Positions 39,349-44,130 of a DNA stretch of 64,000 nt are shown one piece after another. Origin of the DNA: a virus. Taxonomy: Duplodnaviria > Caudoviricetes. Positions within the stretch are counted from its first letter, which is position 1; each line of letters starts with the position of its first letter. The position numbers and the translations under genes are program-made. The notes beneath the pieces are model-generated. The model was not told where the DNA came from, made no database searches, and saw only the letters and a list, made by a program, of their open reading frames with translations. Location of the stretch: the IMG/VR virus record IMGVR_UViG_3300033073_001153, positions 178,608 to 242,607 of that record; one strand, 5' to 3'.

Positions 39349-39828
39349 TTAGTTCCTAAATATATATCCATTACGGCTCAATGTACCAAACATAGATATG
39401 TTATGTATATTTAGAGTTGGTACGTTATAGTAAATGTTAATATCAAATTCATTTACATCTTCTAAAATAGTTATATTAACATTTACTATTTTAACTCTTG
39501 GTTCAAATCTAGCAACTTGTGAATATATTTCATCTCTTATGTATTTTGCTATATCAACCGTAGCTGGAATGAACAAATATTGTTTAAAATCCAATCCATA
39601 TTCAGGATTTAATATCTTTTCGCCCGGAGTAGTTGTAAAAAGATTATATAAAGAATTTTTTATCGCATCTATATCATAATCTACTTTGAAATCGTTAATT
39701 TCTCTGTTTTCAAATAAGTTAGAAGATATATTATACTTTTCTTGTAAATCTAAATGAAGATCGGCATATAAATATGTCTTACCAGCATTACTTTTTTGTG
39801 GTAATCTATTTAATATTATCTTTCCCAT
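39349..39828 (-). CDS. gp25: Baseplate wedge subunit gp25-like
   Basis: YADLHLD...AIKNSL.NLF.T.PGEK.LNP.YG...FEPRV. Confidence 0.9.
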   Translation of the reverse strand: MGKIILNRLPQKSNAGKTYLYADLHLDLQEKYNISSNLFENREINDFKVDYDIDAIKNSLYNLFTTTPGEKILNPEYGLDFKQYLFIPATVDIAKYIRDEIYSQVARFEPRVKIVNVNITILEDVNEFDINIYYNVPTLNIHNISMFGTLSRNGYIFRN

Positions 39829-39833
39829 TAAAA

Positions 39834-39855
39834 TATTTAATGATAGGACTAAATA
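39834..39855. promoter_or_regulatory. Back-to-back divergent TAAATA late-promoter motifs
   Basis: TATTTA at 39834-39839 (5 nt from the gp25 ATG) and TAAATA at 39850-39855 (5 nt from ATG 39861). Confidence 0.65.
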
Positions 39856-39860
39856 TTCTT

Positions 39861-40418
39861 ATGGAAAAAAAGTTTATTAAACTTATTGAGACAACAATTA
39901 CCCGTGTTACACGTGGTGGGTTTCTTTTAGGTGATTATGTAGAATTTGTTAAGAATTATACATCAAAAAAAGAATACAAAGATCTCAATGATTCCGTAAA
40001 AGAAGCTATCGACGATCTTGCTAAATCAAAATTAAACGTAAGAGTTGTTGGAATTAATGATAAACAACCTCTAAGATATCCCGGAAATGCCGATTTAATG
40101 ACCGGAGATGTTGTATTAGCTCTTGCTGAAGATCAAGGAGGCGGAAGAACTCATGGAAATGTATTTGTTCCCTCTTGTTTGTGTAAAGTAGTCGATCATT
40201 ATCCAAATCAAGCTCCACTTCCAGATGAATGGAATTATGATAACAAAGAAATTCATAAACCAGTAGAAGTTAAAGCCGTAGATGGTGGTTCTTCTGGTAT
40301 TACTTACGAATTACCAAAAACTGATACAAAAATTAAACCGTCTTCTTCAAAGAAAAAGACGGTTAATGAAGAATCTTATACTTCTGATTACTTATCAGGT
40401 ATGGAATATCTTCGATAA
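39861..40418 (+). CDS. Hypothetical late protein (start revised from 39774 to 39861)
   Basis: MEKKFIKLIE start follows TAAATA by 5 nt; the longer call would overlap gp25. Confidence 0.7.
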   Translation: MEKKFIKLIETTITRVTRGGFLLGDYVEFVKNYTSKKEYKDLNDSVKEAIDDLAKSKLNVRVVGINDKQPLRYPGNADLMTGDVVLALAEDQGGGRTHGNVFVPSCLCKVVDHYPNQAPLPDEWNYDNKEIHKPVEVKAVDGGSSGITYELPKTDTKIKPSSSKKKTVNEESYTSDYLSGMEYLR

Positions 40419-41135
40419 AGTAACCATACACACAAAACTATTGATTTCTACATCCATAACGAACGAATGACGATCCATGTGATGTCCAATAGTCATAATT
40501 GCTTCTTTTTTCTTTAAAGAATCAATGTTTTTAGTGTAAATTAAGTTTAAAAGATTCTTCAAAAGATTGTGATAATCAGCTTGGAATACGTTTTCATGCT
40601 TAATTACAAATTCACGAAAATCTAAATCATCACTTTTTTGAATTTTTTCTAGCAATTCTTCGATAAATTCGTTAGGAAGTGACGTATCTCTAATATTAAG
40701 TGTTCCAGATATGCTATATTTTTGTAATTCATTCAGAATTTTTCTAAAATCTGGAAAATTATTCCTAATTAATGTCTGAAATAAATAAACTTGCTCTTTT
40801 GGAATCTTAATTTTTTCTTTTGTTAAGATTTTAGCACAATGTTTAGCTACATCATTAATGTTATGCTCTAAATTAACAGTTTGGCATCTGCTTTGAATAG
40901 CATCAATGATTCTATGTTTATAATTTGCTGTTAAAATAAACCTAGTATTATGAGCATATTCTTCAAGGGTATTTCTGAGTGCTCTCATTCCATCAGATGA
41001 AAATCCGTCACAATTCGAAGTAAGAACTTGTTTATTCCCCACAAAAAAATTGTGGGTTTCATCAACACTAAGGTCGTATACGTGGGACTTTGCTTCTAGT
41101 TTAGTAATTTTTTTAATTTTTAAAGTATTTATCAT
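40395..41135 (-). CDS. gp44: Split-intein C-half (41 aa) fused to clamp loader gp44 C-terminal part (alternative start 41159)
   Basis: MINTLKIKKI...VYDLSVDETHNFFVG...LTSN (blocks F/G), then CDGFS..MRALRNTLEEY...RFILTANY...IQSRC...NFPDFRKILNELQ. Confidence 0.9.
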   Translation of the reverse strand: MINTLKIKKITKLEAKSHVYDLSVDETHNFFVGNKQVLTSNCDGFSSDGMRALRNTLEEYAHNTRFILTANYKHRIIDAIQSRCQTVNLEHNINDVAKHCAKILTKEKIKIPKEQVYLFQTLIRNNFPDFRKILNELQKYSISGTLNIRDTSLPNEFIEELLEKIQKSDDLDFREFVIKHENVFQADYHNLLKNLLNLIYTKNIDSLKKKEAIMTIGHHMDRHSFVMDVEINSFVCMVTLSKIFHT

Positions 41136-42480
41136 GATAAATTTTTTTAATAGTAGCATCCTTGATCATTTTATTAAACTGTTCAATATTATCCTCATCT
41201 TTTAAAATTTTGTCAACATCAATATAATCTAAAATATTAGTCTCATTTATCCAAATGAATTTTATTCCCGTTTCTTTACAATAGTTTTGTAAACACATCA
41301 TCTTGTCAATTTCAATATTATATCGATTTCTGGGCTTTAATTCATACATCGTATTAGTACTTTCATCAAAAAAATCACTCACATATGTTTTGTTTTCTCC
41401 TTTAACTCGGATTGTTTCGTATACCATATGTCTATTTGAATAATAAAAACAAGCTTCCCAAGAACTTCTGAATCTTATAATAGTTCCATCTTCAAACTTT
41501 ATTTTAGAGTCCCAATGAGTCCATGTATTTGTAATAGGCGGTGTAAATCTTCCTTCTTCTATAGTTTTTTTCATACTAATAGAAGACTTTTTACTACATT
41601 CCATTTTATGCTTCTTTCCTTCTTCGGTTTTATAAAAATCTAACATCTTTTTAGATTTTTCTTGCCTTCTTTGAATACCTTTTTCACTTTGATTAAATTT
41701 TTTCCCAACTTCGGATAATTTTTTTCTATGTTCTGGAGTTCTAAATGCCGAACGATCTGTAAGGTGTATCCATACACGTTGTTTTATCTCTTCTAATGTA
41801 TATTTTTTAAAGCCAACCCATCCTTTATATGAAGATGTATATGAAAATTCTTCTTCCGTTAACAATTTTCCAGAATATGCACTATAATGCGGTTCTTGTA
41901 GCAAGAACATAAATCTATTCAAAGAAATTCTAGACATTTTTGCTTTAAAAGCTCCTACCCATATTCCATTAGATTTATATACTTTATTAGTTAAAGGACA
42001 CCAAAATTTCTCATTTTGGCTTTTATATTGATTCAAAAGATTTTGTATTTCTTCTTCAGAAAAATCTCTAGGAACAATACGTATAGTAGGCTTATTTATT
42101 TTTTTAAATAAGCGTAATTGTTTATTTCTTTGTGAAATAATTTCTTTATTTTTTTCTCTATACTCTTTATTTTTCTTAGAAAGAATTTCTTTATTTTTAC
42201 GATAATATTCTCGATTTTTTTCAAGAATTTCTTCTTTATGGGTTTCGCGATATTCTCTTGATCTTATTTTATTTTTTTCTAAATTTTTTCTACGATAAAT
42301 TCTAGCTCTCTCTCTATGAGATTCTATATTCTTCTGTCTTAATTCTTTAGATTGTTGCTTTATCTTTTCTTTATTTTTCTGATAATACTCACGTCTATAT
42401 TGAGCACAGTGTTCTTTATTTTCTAATCTAAATTTTTTAGATCTTTCGTTTTTGGATAATTTTTTGGGTTCTTCTTCCAT
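41113..42480 (-). CDS. Free-standing putative homing endonuclease (TnsA-like PD-(D/E)XK C-terminal domain)
   Basis: N-terminal REYYxKNKExI repeats, NUMOD3-like HRKKLSE, and C-terminal FRSSWE...YET...YVSDF...YELKP; own TAAATA at 42488-42493. Confidence 0.75.
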   Translation of the reverse strand: MEEEPKKLSKNERSKKFRLENKEHCAQYRREYYQKNKEKIKQQSKELRQKNIESHRERARIYRRKNLEKNKIRSREYRETHKEEILEKNREYYRKNKEILSKKNKEYREKNKEIISQRNKQLRLFKKINKPTIRIVPRDFSEEEIQNLLNQYKSQNEKFWCPLTNKVYKSNGIWVGAFKAKMSRISLNRFMFLLQEPHYSAYSGKLLTEEEFSYTSSYKGWVGFKKYTLEEIKQRVWIHLTDRSAFRTPEHRKKLSEVGKKFNQSEKGIQRRQEKSKKMLDFYKTEEGKKHKMECSKKSSISMKKTIEEGRFTPPITNTWTHWDSKIKFEDGTIIRFRSSWEACFYYSNRHMVYETIRVKGENKTYVSDFFDESTNTMYELKPRNRYNIEIDKMMCLQNYCKETGIKFIWINETNILDYIDVDKILKDEDNIEQFNKMIKDATIKKIYHDKYFKN

Positions 42481-42526
42481 ACCCTATTATTTAGTGTAAT
42501 GTATGAAGTCATACCATCAACCTTGA

Positions 42527-43159
42527 TCAATTTATGGTAATTATTTCATAAATTCCTTCATTCATGATGTCTATTAACTTTTTTCTAATTGGTAAATTAG
42601 ATATTTTATCCTTTACATACCATTTGTGATCAGAAGTACAACACACAATTTCTCCATTTTCAAATTCAATCTCATACACTTCTTGAGACCCTTTATCTAT
42701 CTTATAGAAAGGTCTCCATTCGATTCTATTTTTAGAAAAATTAAATGATTTCACCAAATCATTACGATCATCAACATTTTTGATCTCTACTTGCTGTTCT
42801 GATCCATTTCTGAGAATTGTTATAAGAGTATCTTCATGCAAGCATTCGTCTAATATGACGGACTTAATACCGCCATCCATAGATTTGGTTTGGGAGAATC
42901 CAACAATCTTATGCCGAACGGTATCAATTCCATTTTCATCAGAAGCATTGATATATAAGTAATCACAACCTAGAATATCATTAACGATAATCTTTGCTAT
43001 GCTACTTTTTCCGATTCCCGGAGTTCCCGTAAATAATATATGAGGAATATCCTTTTTTTGTTTAAAAGATTCCAACAAATCTCTTATTTCATCCGAAATA
43101 CAAAGATCTTCAATCTTTTTTGGACGATATTTTTCACACCACAAACTAGAAAAGTCCAT
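42527..43159 (-). CDS. gp44: Clamp loader gp44 N-terminal part (105 aa) fused to split-intein N-half (105 aa)
   Basis: LWCEKYRP, Walker A GTPGIGKS, INASDE, Walker B VILDE, then CLHEDTLI (block A) and CTSDHKW (block B TxxH), then stop. Confidence 0.9.
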   Translation of the reverse strand: MDFSSLWCEKYRPKKIEDLCISDEIRDLLESFKQKKDIPHILFTGTPGIGKSSIAKIIVNDILGCDYLYINASDENGIDTVRHKIVGFSQTKSMDGGIKSVILDECLHEDTLITILRNGSEQQVEIKNVDDRNDLVKSFNFSKNRIEWRPFYKIDKGSQEVYEIEFENGEIVCCTSDHKWYVKDKISNLPIRKKLIDIMNEGIYEIITIN

Positions 43160-43164
43160 ATATT

Positions 43165-43611
43165 TTATCGTCCAGATGAACCGAATCCTTTATCTCCACG
43201 TGAAGTGATGTCTTTGCTTTCTACCCAACAAGTTTCTGGTTCAAGAAGTTTATAAACTACAAGTTGTGAAATTCTATCACCTTTTTTAACATGATAATCT
43301 GTTTGGGTGTTGTTTATTAAAGAAATCCCCAATTTTCCACGATAAGAATTATCAATAACTCCAAAAAAACTCGTAATACCATGTTTGAAGAACATTCCTG
43401 ATCTAGATTCTACACGAATCCAATAACCCGGAGTAATAAATCCAATATCTAAGCCAATAGGCACATTTGCTGTACCATTTGCGGGGATTAAAGCATCTTC
43501 TACCGCATAAACATCATATCCAGTATCTCCAGTTAATAATTCTTTGTTATTTCTTTCTGGAAGACGAGCATCTTCGTGAGTTTTTACAAAACAAATTTTA
43601 ATATTTTCCAT
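43165..43611 (-). CDS. dut: dUTPase (trimeric)
   Basis: TGYDV, RSG, GVIDNSYRG, GDRISQL and RGDKGFGSSG motifs. Confidence 0.95.
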   Translation of the reverse strand: MENIKICFVKTHEDARLPERNNKELLTGDTGYDVYAVEDALIPANGTANVPIGLDIGFITPGYWIRVESRSGMFFKHGITSFFGVIDNSYRGKLGISLINNTQTDYHVKKGDRISQLVVYKLLEPETCWVESKDITSRGDKGFGSSGR

Positions 43612-43617
43612 TTTTCT

Positions 43618-43645
43618 AGTATAATGATTTTTTAGTTGAACACAA
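43618..43645 (-). promoter_or_regulatory. Sigma70-like promoter for the dut-gp44 operon
   Basis: TTGTGT-16 nt-TATACT on the - strand, ending 6 nt before ATG 43611. Confidence 0.5.
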
Positions 43646-43668
43646 GATAAAAATATCTAAATATAGAT

Positions 43669-44130
43669 ATGTCCGACGATTCAGAACTAGATGATACGGT
43701 AAATTCTCTTTTAAATCAACTAAAAACTGTGCCAACTGTTGCTAAAAAAGCAAAAGAAGCTTCTAACGACAACATTTCACGAGAAAGTTTGGAAAAATTT
43801 GTCGTACAATATGCTTCTAGGTTAGTAGAAAACGCTACGGAATCTGTAGAATACATTAAAGATAATGTTCAAGCTGCTCCTACCGCTGAAGATGTGGTTT
43901 CTCTTTCTGAACTCATAAAATCCACAGCAGGAGCTATCGAAATCTTAAATAAGATCGTAATAAACAAAGAAAAACTCGAAAATTCTGTCAAGATTAAAGA
44001 AATGGATATAAGCAGTAAGCGTGAAGAATTAGAAGTAAAAACTAATGTATTTCTTGCTTCAAGAGAAGATGTATTAAAACAACTTATCAATAAAACAAAA
44101 GTAATAGAAGCTACTACTGAAGAACTTTAA
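43669..44130 (+). CDS. Possible terminase small subunit (gp16-like)
   Basis: Helical LVENATES...LSELIKS...AIEILNK and C-terminal TNVFLASREDVLKQL resemble T4-like gp16; late motif upstream. Confidence 0.4.
   Translation: MSDDSELDDTVNSLLNQLKTVPTVAKKAKEASNDNISRESLEKFVVQYASRLVENATESVEYIKDNVQAAPTAEDVVSLSELIKSTAGAIEILNKIVINKEKLENSVKIKEMDISSKREELEVKTNVFLASREDVLKQLINKTKVIEATTEEL

What the first reader, a model, noticed from the sequence alone, without database searches (positions are those of the whole stretch)
40395..43159. Fractured clamp-loader gene with a naturally split intein at the Walker B motif
Seen in sequence: gp44 is encoded as two ORFs in different frames. The first gives gp44 residues 1-105 ending VILDE, then an intein N-half that starts at Cys (codon 42842-42844, CLHEDTL), contains block B TSDH, and stops after 105 aa. 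The second starts with an intein C-half of about 41 aa ending LTSN (Asn codon 41013-41015), followed by Cys+1 and about 205 aa of gp44. Splicing would restore VILDE-CDGF and a clamp loader of about 310 aa. Established: fractured genes with split inteins flanking a free-standing endonuclease are known from phage gp41, NrdJ and IMPDH. Inference: the essential AAA+ ATPase is made by protein trans-splicing. I do not recall a split intein described at this site in gp44, so this may be a new orthogonal intein pair. The penultimate residue is Ser rather than His, as in cyanobacterial DnaE split inteins.
Basis: partly seen in the sequence, partly recalled or inferred. Interest (0 to 1): 0.92.

Follow-up and report, generated by a model that had tools for sequence, protein, structure and literature searches.

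The report
Split intein in phage clamp loader
A 243-kb phage encodes its only DNA-polymerase clamp-loader ATPase as two genes that each carry half of a self-splicing intein, with a selfish nuclease gene between them; the layout is a known kind, but I found no paper describing it in this host protein or with this nuclease type.

Summary
On the minus strand lie three ORFs. The first is gp44 residues 1-105 plus a 105-aa IntN. The second is a 455-aa free-standing nuclease. The third is a 41-aa IntC plus gp44 residues 106-310.

All splicing residues are present: Cys1, TxxH, the block F Asp and His, the terminal Asn and Cys+1. A natural contiguous allele, 77-83% identical, folds as a Hint domain (pLDDT 92) and matches solved inteins. 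Both intein halves are under strong purifying selection (dN/dS 0.04-0.15). The genome has no second gp44.

Syntenic relatives show every state: no intein, a contiguous mini-intein, split with nuclease, and split with the nuclease deleted. Dozens of metagenomic phages carry the split form. Assembly error is therefore excluded.

The nuclease is TnsA-like PD-(D/E)XK. It is neither of the two families (GIY-YIG, Vsr-like) reported for fractured genes.

Trans-splicing itself is inferred, not shown. The arrangement is the "fractured gene" kind of Dassa et al. 2009. I found no paper describing it for gp44.

This scan has already noted the same arrangement on other DNA: 17 notes in at least 13 genomes. 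I class it as a new member of a known kind, of moderate interest.

The parts
42845..43159 (-). gp44 N-extein, residues 1-105 (P-loop GTPGIGKS, Walker B VILDE)
   Evidence: phrog_168 clamp loader 1.7e-30, profile positions 9-109. RFC-S 2CHG residues 4-111 at 1.3e-21, and T4 gp44 3U5Z at 8e-12.
42530..42844 (-). IntN, 105 aa, from Cys1 (42844-42842) to ..EIITIN; stop TGA at 42529-42527. Block A CLHEDTL, block B CCTSDHKW. Net charge -4.
   Evidence: Pfam Intein_splicing positions 2-74, 20.4 bits, below the cut-off for a half domain. 77% identical to the contiguous allele that folds as a Hint domain. Cys1 and TxxH present in 48 of 48 relatives. dN/dS 0.06-0.15. Charge.
42481..42526 (-). 46-nt spacer before the nuclease gene. 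It holds a TAAATA-like late-promoter core and a weak hairpin that could cover the start codon.
   Evidence: Sequence. L009 has an exact TATAAATA here. The window fold is not better than shuffles (z -0.30), and TATAAATA is not enriched in the window, so this is only suggestive.
41113..42480 (-). Free-standing endonuclease ORF, 455 aa including the stop codon. Residues 10-129 form long basic helices (KNKE/YR repeats), followed by a middle helical region and a C-terminal nuclease domain.
   Evidence: phrog_15427 'endonuclease' 7e-14. A family of 46 clusters has no Pfam annotation on record. AF2 model pLDDT 90.7. dN/dS about 0.18-0.28 against L010 and L009.
41215..41583 (-). TnsA-like PD-(D/E)XK nuclease domain (residues 300-422). 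Invariant residues are E342 (FRSSWE), D369/D372 (DFxD) and E380-x-K382 (YELKP).
   Evidence: Top VIA hit is TnsA 1T0F_A, Z 8.4, rmsd 3.1 A over 118 residues. Foldseek gives TnsA probability 0.98. 29 of 46 family members hit PF08722 Tn7_TnsA-like_N, best 2e-5. Invariant columns.
41188..41216 (-). Sigma-70-like promoter match TTGACA-17-GATAAT inside the 3' end of the nuclease gene, 52 nt upstream of the IntC ATG.
   Evidence: 11 of 12 consensus matches. Conserved in L004, L009, L010 and L022; in L004 it lies in the remnant kept after the nuclease was deleted. Absent in L001, L007 and L037. Promoter function is inferred.
41013..41135 (-). IntC, 41 aa, from ATG 41135-41133 to Asn 41015-41013. Block F VYDLSVDETHNF, block G VLTSN. 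The first 17 residues have net charge +4. It overlaps the nuclease stop (41115-41113) by 23 nt.
   Evidence: Pfam Intein_splicing positions 122-150, 23.5 bits. Start inferred from relatives. 83% identical to the contiguous allele. dN/dS 0.04-0.12. Charge.
40398..41012 (-). gp44 C-extein, 205 aa, starting with Cys+1 (41012-41010, CDGFSSDGMRAL). Includes sensor 1, the SRC motif, the lid and the collar. Stop at 40397-40395.
   Evidence: phrog_168 4.6e-34, positions 98-308; Gp44_lid 5e-10. RFC-S 2CHQ from residue 106 and T4 gp44.
40336..40364 (-). Terminator-like hairpin (13 pairs) plus a T-run, 31 nt after the gp44-C stop.
   Evidence: It is the only such site in 40200-43700; shuffles give a mean of 0.8.

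Best explanation
The phage's only gp44/RFC-type clamp-loader ATPase is a fractured gene. Two polypeptides are made from neighbouring minus-strand ORFs: gp44(1-105)-IntN (210 aa) and IntC-gp44(106-310) (246 aa). The acidic IntN and the basic N-terminal part of IntC associate into one class-1 Hint domain. That domain then performs standard protein trans-splicing: an N-S acyl shift at Cys1, trans-thioesterification to Cys+1, cyclisation of the terminal Asn, and an S-N shift. The result is a 310-aa clamp loader with its Walker B region restored as VILDE-CDGF. The gene between the halves encodes a TnsA-like PD-(D/E)XK nuclease that most likely acts as a free-standing homing endonuclease. Its insertion into the loop of a contiguous mini-intein (VN-EFNV-INT in the relative L008) created the split. 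Its 3' end overlaps the start codon of the downstream half, and in this clade probably supplies a promoter for it as well. Shown: the anatomy, residue conservation, the fold of the contiguous allele, selection, single copy, and the distribution of states. Inferred: that splicing happens, that the nuclease homes, and the expression signals.
For: Anatomy and junctions. Exteins are complete and abut exactly. Splicing residues are intact in the window, and Cys1 plus TxxH are present in 48 of 48 relatives; the C-terminal ends read SN|C or HN|C in 18 of 18. Natural contiguous mini-intein alleles exist at the same site (P0047-P0052, about 455-470 aa). The L008 intein gives an AF2 model with pLDDT 92.2 and pTM 0.86; its best PDB matches are all inteins (Ssp DnaB, Npu DnaE at 26% identity, NrdJ-1, Spl DnaX, gp41-1). 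Sequence match to Npu DnaE has E 0.001, with the same Ser-Asn end. dN/dS is 0.04-0.15 in IntN and IntC between split alleles at near-saturated dS, and the intein dN is lower than the extein dN. No other clamp-loader gene exists in the 242,607-bp record, which CheckV rates 100% complete. L004 lost the nuclease but kept both halves intact, plus about 100 nt of the nuclease 3' end. The same layout occurs in distant jumbo phages (L001 = LR756500.1, L007, L022). Charge complementarity. No intron model matches.
Against: There is no experimental or proteomic evidence of a spliced product. Each half scores below the Pfam gathering threshold on its own (20.4 and 23.5 bits against 35.8), though this is expected for half domains. 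The two halves of the window itself could not be co-folded; the fold evidence comes from a 77-83% identical contiguous relative. The penultimate residue is Ser rather than His, which is non-canonical but shared with Npu DnaE. No Shine-Dalgarno sequence is evident before either candidate IntC start, and the start (41135 or 41159) is inferred from relatives. The hairpin and late-promoter signals before the nuclease gene are not statistically distinguishable from shuffles.
Confidence: 0.85

Rival explanations
1. The halves associate through the intein fragments but do not splice. The clamp loader would then work as a non-covalent two-chain protein, with the intein acting only as a dimerisation module.
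For: Splicing is untested. The penultimate residue is Ser, not His. Genes in pieces without inteins do function in some phages, for example the SbcD-like case in PMC2677866.
Against: Every residue needed only for chemistry (Cys1, TxxH, block F Asp and His, terminal Asn, Cys+1) is conserved in all relatives examined. A 146-residue Hint domain lodged beside the Walker B residues would probably block the ATP site. The Ser-Asn end is the same as in the fast-splicing Npu DnaE.
Confidence: 0.07
2. The gene is a decaying pseudogene, disrupted by a mobile nuclease, and the phage uses another clamp loader.
For: A selfish nuclease sits inside the gene.
Against: dN/dS is 0.04-0.36 in all four segments. 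Both ORFs are intact. No other gp44-like gene exists in a complete 243-kb genome. The arrangement is conserved across 46 or more clusters and in distant phages.
Confidence: 0.03
3. The frame breaks are assembly or sequencing errors in a contiguous large intein with an internal nuclease domain.
For: The window comes from a metagenome-derived virus record.
Against: The stops, restarts and ORF overlaps recur in independent assemblies from ENA, JGI, Logan, GenBank and IMG/VR. The nuclease has its own start and lies in a different frame. L004 lacks the nuclease entirely.
Confidence: 0.01
4. The middle segment is an intron that is removed from the RNA, giving a contiguous intein-containing mRNA.
For: Homing endonucleases often reside in group I introns, including Vsr-like ones in recA introns.
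Against: No group I or group II intron model matches at E up to 1 in 40000-43700. The N-half ends with an in-frame stop that is conserved in relatives, and IntC has its own conserved Met. L039 and L004 keep split halves separated by only 50-262 nt.
Confidence: 0.01

Closest known systems
Fractured genes with split inteins and a free-standing homing endonuclease (Dassa et al. 2009, PMC2677866: gp41-1 to -9, NrdA, NrdJ-1, IMPDH-1, DnaE, ligase, terminase)
   Same: The architecture is identical: N-extein plus IntN ORF, endonuclease ORF, then IntC plus C-extein ORF, all on one strand in aquatic phage DNA. The host is a replication enzyme. One allele lacks the nuclease, as gp41-7 does. There is a late-promoter-like element before the nuclease.
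   Different: The host protein (gp44 clamp loader) is not in their list. The nuclease is TnsA-like with a canonical E..D..ExK motif, not GIY-YIG or Vsr-like. Here the contiguous, split and intein-less alleles are all available in syntenic relatives.
Npu DnaE naturally split intein (PDB 4KL5, 2KEQ)
   Same: It is a class-1 Cys1/Cys+1 intein with about 102-105 aa IntN and 36-41 aa IntC. It has the same split position, the same Ser-Asn C-terminus, the VYD..V...HNF block F, and an acidic IntN with a basic IntC. Foldseek E is 1.2e-8 at 26% identity.
   Different: The host is different (DnaE, whose halves are encoded far apart in cyanobacterial chromosomes). Sequence similarity is only weak (E 0.001).
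Cyanobacterial DnaX (PolIII gamma/tau) intein at site a, just after Walker B (Novikova et al. 2016, PMC4760082; Spl DnaX mini-intein PDB 7CFV)
   Same: It is an orthologous AAA+ clamp-loader ATPase with the same kind of position, immediately after the Walker B acidic residues.
   Different: Those inteins are contiguous and cellular. Sequence similarity to Spl DnaX (E 0.0096) is no closer than to DnaE or KlbA inteins, so common descent is not shown. Archaeal RFC-S sites a-d do not include this position.
TnsA endonuclease of Tn7 (PDB 1T0F, 1F1Z; Pfam PF08722)
   Same: It has the restriction-endonuclease-like fold with E, D and ExK catalytic residues. It is the best structural match to residues 300-422.
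   Different: TnsA is a transposase subunit that works with TnsB and TnsC. Here the domain sits at the C-terminus of a free-standing protein with long basic helices, placed where homing endonucleases sit. I found no paper describing TnsA-like homing endonucleases.

Membership tests
Class-1 intein (Hint domain) | Cys or Ser nucleophile as the first intein residue, directly after the N-extein | tested here: met
   Cys1 follows VILDE. Cys is present in 48 of 48 relatives.
Class-1 intein (Hint domain) | Block B TxxH | tested here: met
   TSDH in the window. TxxH is present in 48 of 48 relatives.
Class-1 intein (Hint domain) | Block F Asp and His, block G terminal Asn, and a Cys/Ser/Thr +1 residue | tested here: met
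   VYDLSVDETHNF ... VLTSN|C. The ends read SN|C or HN|C in 18 of 18. The penultimate Ser is non-canonical but is also seen in Npu DnaE.
Class-1 intein (Hint domain) | Hint fold | tested here: met
   Tested on the natural contiguous allele from L008, which is 77% (IntN) and 83% (IntC) identical to the window. pLDDT is 92.2, and the top 50 PDB matches are inteins, BIL or Hedgehog domains, TM up to 0.85. The window's own two chains were not co-folded.
Class-1 intein (Hint domain) | Exteins are contiguous relative to intein-less homologues | tested here: met
   Covers phrog_168 positions 8-109 and 98-308. The halves abut at the RFC-S DE|A junction. Intein-less alleles L015-L021 and L024-L028 read through ..DE(A/S/N)D...
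Class-1 intein (Hint domain) | Protein splicing activity | not testable with these tools
   Needs expression, or proteomics for the junction peptide.
Fractured gene with naturally split intein (Dassa 2009) | Two ORFs, each an extein part fused to an intein part, on the same strand and adjacent | tested here: met
Fractured gene with naturally split intein (Dassa 2009) | Free-standing endonuclease ORF between the halves | tested here: met
   A 455-aa ORF with a nuclease domain.
Fractured gene with naturally split intein (Dassa 2009) | Endonuclease of the GIY-YIG or Vsr-like (EDxHD) family | tested here: not met
   No Pfam match to either family at E up to 1. The motif is E..D..ExK. The best fold match is TnsA at Z 8.4, while I-Bth0305I is only Foldseek rank 32 with E 0.54. 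This is a difference in a component, not in the architecture.
Fractured gene with naturally split intein (Dassa 2009) | Hairpin with a late-promoter element before the endonuclease start | tested here: inconclusive
   TAAATA-like cores are present in the window, L009 and L010. The window fold has z -0.30, and the motif is not enriched.
TnsA-like PD-(D/E)XK nuclease (PF08722) | Restriction-endonuclease-like fold matching the TnsA N-domain | tested here: met
   1T0F_A gives Z 8.4, rmsd 3.1 A over 118 residues and ranks first of 48,161 chains. The next rows are coiled coils that match the N-terminal helices. Z is middling by the tool's own caveat.
TnsA-like PD-(D/E)XK nuclease (PF08722) | Profile match to PF08722 | tested here: inconclusive
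   The window protein has no hit at E up to 0.1. 29 of 46 family members do, with a best value of 2e-5.
TnsA-like PD-(D/E)XK nuclease (PF08722) | Catalytic acidic residues and Lys (E, D, ExK) | tested here: met
   E342, D369, D372, E380 and K382 are invariant in 46 sequences.
Homing endonuclease (functional class) | Site-specific cleavage of nuclease-less alleles, with copying by repair | not testable with these tools
   Support is indirect only. The distribution among syntenic relatives is sporadic. Relatives sit between pieces of TerL and UvsW genes in T4-like phages. The extein residues next to the site are hypervariable.

The most novel reading that the evidence does not exclude
The TnsA-like nuclease may be a previously unrecognised family of free-standing homing endonucleases whose target is the loop-coding DNA of contiguous mini-inteins. 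If so, it repeatedly converts contiguous gp44 inteins into split ones; the IntN tree needs at least 3 contiguous/split changes on well-supported branches. It may also make itself hard to lose, because its 3' end carries the start codon overlap, and in this clade a promoter, for the downstream half. That would explain why two independent deletions (L004, L037) kept exactly that end. Together with the P-loop and sensor-1 inteins seen in relatives, gp44 would be a natural series for watching split inteins arise.
Probability: 0.3. Interest if true: 0.7.

Novelty: new member of a known kind. Interest (0 to 1): 0.5.

Why it matters
Naturally split inteins from fractured phage genes (gp41-1, NrdJ-1, IMPDH-1) are among the fastest protein-ligation tools, and orthogonal pairs are in demand. 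This family offers many natural variants with Npu-like features: Cys1/Cys+1, a Ser-Asn or His-Asn end, and a 105/41 split. The native flanks are DE|CD.

For biology, it shows an essential AAA+ ATPase whose Walker B region exists only after protein splicing. It also offers a rare set of syntenic relatives that hold every evolutionary state: no intein, contiguous, split with nuclease, and split with the nuclease deleted. With these, the origin of split inteins by nuclease insertion can be tested directly. Finally, it points to a TnsA-like nuclease family acting where homing endonucleases act.

Tried and rejected
- **Nucleotide search.** A blastn search of the locus against 50,697 phage records found nothing. 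Protein-level searches were needed.
- **Apparent contiguous matches.** tblastn seemed to extend into IntN in Rhizobium and Acidovorax phages. This was spurious: their gp44 genes are ordinary 315-aa genes.
- **PDB sequence search with the nuclease.** It matched only coiled-coil noise. Foldseek on the whole 455-aa model gave no hit at E <= 0.001. The TnsA match came from VIA and from family-wide Pfam scans.
- **gp62.** A search for PF16790 in the genome returned nothing, and the control genomes returned nothing either, so it says nothing.
- **Regulatory hairpin.** The hairpin before the nuclease is not better than shuffles. TATAAATA is not enriched in the window.
- **Embedded promoter.** The TTGACA-17-GATAAT match is conserved only in the window's clade and L022. 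It is absent in L001, L007 and L037.
- **Link to DnaX inteins.** A specific relationship to cyanobacterial DnaX inteins is not supported by sequence.
- **Co-folding.** IntN with IntC of the window itself could not be folded together, because the fold tool takes one natural chain only.
- **P0009.** Its contig has no DNA on file.
Full report
**What is there**

The window is the last 64 kb of a 242,607-bp virus record that CheckV rates 100% complete. Three consecutive ORFs lie on the minus strand.

- ORF 43159-42527 (210 aa). Its first 105 residues are the N-terminal part of a gp44/RFC-type clamp loader: phrog_168 at 1.7e-30 on profile positions 9-109, and RFC-S 2CHG residues 4-111 at 1.3e-21. 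This part ends in the Walker B strand VILDE.
- Residue 106 of that ORF is Cys. The next 105 residues start CLHEDTL, contain CCTSDHKW, and end in a TGA stop.
- ORF 42480-41113 encodes 455 aa.
- ORF 41159-40395 overlaps the end of the 455-aa ORF. Relatives begin this protein at the Met before (I/L)NTLKIKK, so the start in the window is most likely ATG 41135.
- From that start there are 41 residues ending VLTSN. Then come Cys and 205 residues of clamp loader: phrog_168 positions 98-308, Gp44_lid, RFC-S from residue 106, and T4 gp44.

The two extein parts meet exactly at the DE|A junction of RFC-S, so no host residue is missing.

**Are the inserted pieces an intein?**

Each half alone gives a sub-threshold Pfam Intein_splicing match. 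IntN matches model positions 2-74 and IntC matches positions 122-150.

The stronger evidence comes from natural contiguous alleles. Six gp44 proteins of 454-607 aa carry the same element uninterrupted at the same DE|C site. Five are 454-471 aa; the 607-aa one also has a second intein in the P-loop. One of them, from locus L008, lies in a syntenic relative with the gene order dUTPase, gp44, unknown gene, gp25, 608-aa gene.

- Its 149-aa intein is 77% identical to the window's IntN and 83% identical to its IntC.
- It folds with pLDDT 92.2 and pTM 0.86.
- It matches solved inteins only: Ssp DnaB mini-intein, Npu DnaE (26% identity), Npu DnaB, the NrdJ-1 split intein, Spl DnaX and gp41-1, with TM up to 0.85.
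- HMMER aligns its ..LTSN|C end with ..IASN of Npu DnaE. The penultimate Ser therefore has a precedent in a very active split intein.

Conservation agrees. In 48 of 48 relatives whose pattern could be parsed, the residue after DE is Cys and block B is TxxH. The C-terminal ends are SN|C or HN|C in 18 of 18. IntN is acidic (net -4), and the first 17 residues of IntC are basic (+4). Dassa et al. likewise found opposite local charges on the two interface strands of their split-intein models.

**Is it real and maintained?**

The same three-gene layout occurs in several independent assemblies:

- GenBank LR756500.1, an unannotated 462-kb uncultured phage.
- Contigs from ENA, JGI, Logan and IMG/VR.

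A word-indexed search found 46 clusters of N-halves of about 205-230 aa. An exhaustive search at the 50% cluster level found 32 representatives at E <= 1e-10. These include N-halves, C-halves and contiguous forms.

Selection was measured between the window and four syntenic relatives, with synonymous sites near saturation (dS 0.9 to above 3).

| Segment | dN/dS |
|---|---|
| IntN | 0.06-0.15 |
| IntC | 0.04-0.12 |
| Nuclease gene | about 0.18-0.28 |

The intein halves change less at the protein level than the exteins do. The genome has no other clamp-loader gene: only the two halves match phrog_168 strongly. No intron model matches the region. Assembly error, pseudogene decay and RNA splicing are therefore unlikely.

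**States among relatives**

Syntenic or near relatives show four states.

- **Intein-less.** L015 and L016 are 81% identical in the C-extein, and L016 is a 236-kb contig. They read ..VVILEE-NDSAS... L017 reads ..IILDE-SDSWS.., and L019-L021 read ..ILDE-ADSLSG...
- **Contiguous mini-intein.** L008, L013 and L014, with the loop VN-EFNV-INT.
- **Split with nuclease.** The window, L009, L010 and L018.
- **Split without nuclease.** L004.

In L004 the nuclease gene has been replaced by a palindromic stretch. About 100 nt of its 3' end survive, directly upstream of the IntC start. This shows that the split form persists and stays under selection without the nuclease. In the split alleles the cassette sits exactly where EFNV lies in the contiguous allele. 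This is the usual position of endonuclease domains and of split sites in inteins.

An IQ-TREE of 44 IntN sequences places the five contiguous alleles apart from one another among split ones. Well-supported branches force at least three changes of state. The alignment is short (105 columns) and the bootstrap had not fully settled, so this result is rough. The few extein residues next to the site differ sharply between otherwise similar alleles (DGFSSDG, DGVTVEG, DSASVEF, DSWSESA). That pattern is expected around a homing site, but it is not proof.

**The middle gene**

Its family of 46 clusters has no Pfam annotation on record, and members are named only 'hypothetical protein'. Many members lie on the same contigs as fractured gp44 halves, judged by matching contig lengths.

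- The AF2 model (pLDDT 90.7) has long basic helices (residues 10-129), a helical middle part and a C-terminal alpha/beta domain.
- That C-terminal domain (residues 300-422) matches TnsA best: VIA Z 8.4, rmsd 3.1 A over 118 residues, rank 1 of 48,161 chains. Foldseek gives probability 0.98.
- 29 of 46 members hit PF08722 Tn7_TnsA-like_N, best 2e-5. The window copy itself does not.
- E342 (FRSSWE), D369/D372 (DFxD) and E380-x-K382 are invariant. This is a canonical PD-(D/E)XK site.

This differs from the two families Dassa et al. found in fractured genes, GIY-YIG and Vsr-like. Relatives of the domain also sit between pieces of a UvsW helicase gene in Proteus phage PM2, and at the junction of two terminase large-subunit ORFs in Shigella phage JK32 and related phages. 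That placement fits a gene-fracturing homing endonuclease. Cleavage and homing are inferred, not shown.

**Expression signals**

The nuclease start is preceded by a 46-nt spacer with a TAAATA-like core; L009 has an exact TATAAATA there. A possible hairpin could cover the start codon. The fold is no better than shuffles (z -0.30), and the motif is not enriched in the window.

A TTGACA-17-GATAAT match lies inside the nuclease 3' end, 52 nt before the IntC ATG. It is conserved in L004 (within the retained remnant), L009, L010 and L022, but not in L001, L007 or L037. A strong hairpin plus a T-run follows the C-half. I treat all of these as hints only.

**Comparison with what is known**

The architecture is that of the fractured genes of Dassa et al. 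2009 (PMC2677866). Their hosts were gp41, IMPDH, DnaE, NrdA, NrdJ, ligase and terminase, with no clamp loader.

Novikova et al. 2016 (PMC4760082) describe contiguous inteins in cyanobacterial DnaX immediately after Walker B, and in archaeal RFC-S at four other sites. The phage site corresponds in position to the DnaX site. However, the intein is no closer in sequence to Spl DnaX than to DnaE or KlbA inteins.

Six literature searches found no description of a split intein in gp44 or in a phage clamp loader, and none of TnsA-like homing endonucleases. The library omits most subscription journals, so absence is not proven.

This scan has noted the same arrangement before on other DNA: 17 notes in at least 13 genomes. 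These include Walker B splits with a TnsA-like nuclease, atypically split P-loop inteins, and three-piece genes. I saw the three-piece form myself in L037 and L039.

**Verdict**

I put the probability that the two products are joined by protein trans-splicing at about 0.85. It is a new member of a known kind: a new host protein, with a nuclease from a family not previously tied to fractured genes. It is widespread rather than unique. Interest is moderate, at 0.5. Its value is as a source of orthogonal split inteins, and as a natural series for studying how split inteins arise.

Noticed in passing
L037:4526-6857 and L039:1827-5355: In other metagenomic phages gp44 is cut into three pieces. A short IntN (about 27-38 aa) follows the P-loop GK, and a long IntC (about 130 aa) precedes the middle piece. 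The middle piece ends in the Walker B IntN, and IntC plus the C-extein follow. This needs two different split inteins, and the first is atypically split.
   Followed up: partly
L039:4099-5355: The third gp44 piece in L039 carries yet another intein, seemingly contiguous, after RFILT|C in the sensor-1 region. That makes three inteins in one clamp-loader gene. [quoted passage not shown]
   Followed up: no
L004:4646-4909: The nuclease gene has been replaced by a long, near-perfect palindrome of about 150 nt that reads as similar ORFs on both strands. About 100 nt of the nuclease 3' end are retained. L037:5984-6139 is a second, independent remnant of the same 3' end.
   Followed up: partly
L015:3186-4145 and L016:3186-4145: The closest intein-less gp44 alleles read VVILEE-NDSAS at Walker B, with EE instead of the usual DE. 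The residues next to the intein site are hypervariable among otherwise 76-81% identical exteins.
   Followed up: no
L011:1115-4226 (Shigella phage JK32) and L012:1080-4737 (Proteus phage PM2): Relatives of the TnsA-like nuclease domain lie at the end of the first of two 'terminase large subunit' CDSs in JK32 and related Krischvirus phages. In PM2 they lie between pieces of a UvsW-type helicase gene. These may be gene fractures by the same nuclease family, with or without inteins.
   Followed up: partly
L030:1545-5021: An IMG/VR contig has a DnaE PHP domain split by an intein whose IntC is 46% identical to the window's. Only about 50 nt separate the halves. A different PD-(D/E)XK-like nuclease gene lies upstream, and a further intein-like insertion lies downstream.
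   Followed up: no
G000:C1:52356-52730, 71371-72576 and 321-698 (outside the window): The same genome has further Intein_splicing matches at three places. Earlier notes place the first two in the portal and ThyX genes. The phage is therefore intein-rich.
   Followed up: partly
G000:C1:109236-109763 (outside the window): A second locus in the genome matches the basic KNKE/YR helical repeats of the nuclease N-terminus (tblastn E 4e-9). This may be a shared DNA-binding module in another mobile nuclease.
   Followed up: no
window 39774-40418 (+): A 214-aa ORF of unknown function converges on gp44-C and overlaps its last 24 nt. The pairing is conserved in relatives (L004:5639-6223, L008:3836-4414). 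The terminator-like hairpin at 40336-40364 lies inside its 3' end.
   Followed up: no
L037:1593-4191: The same contig that holds the three-piece gp44 also has a fractured IMPDH gene. A NUMOD3-containing ORF lies between the halves, as in IMPDH-1 of Dassa et al. 2009.
   Followed up: no
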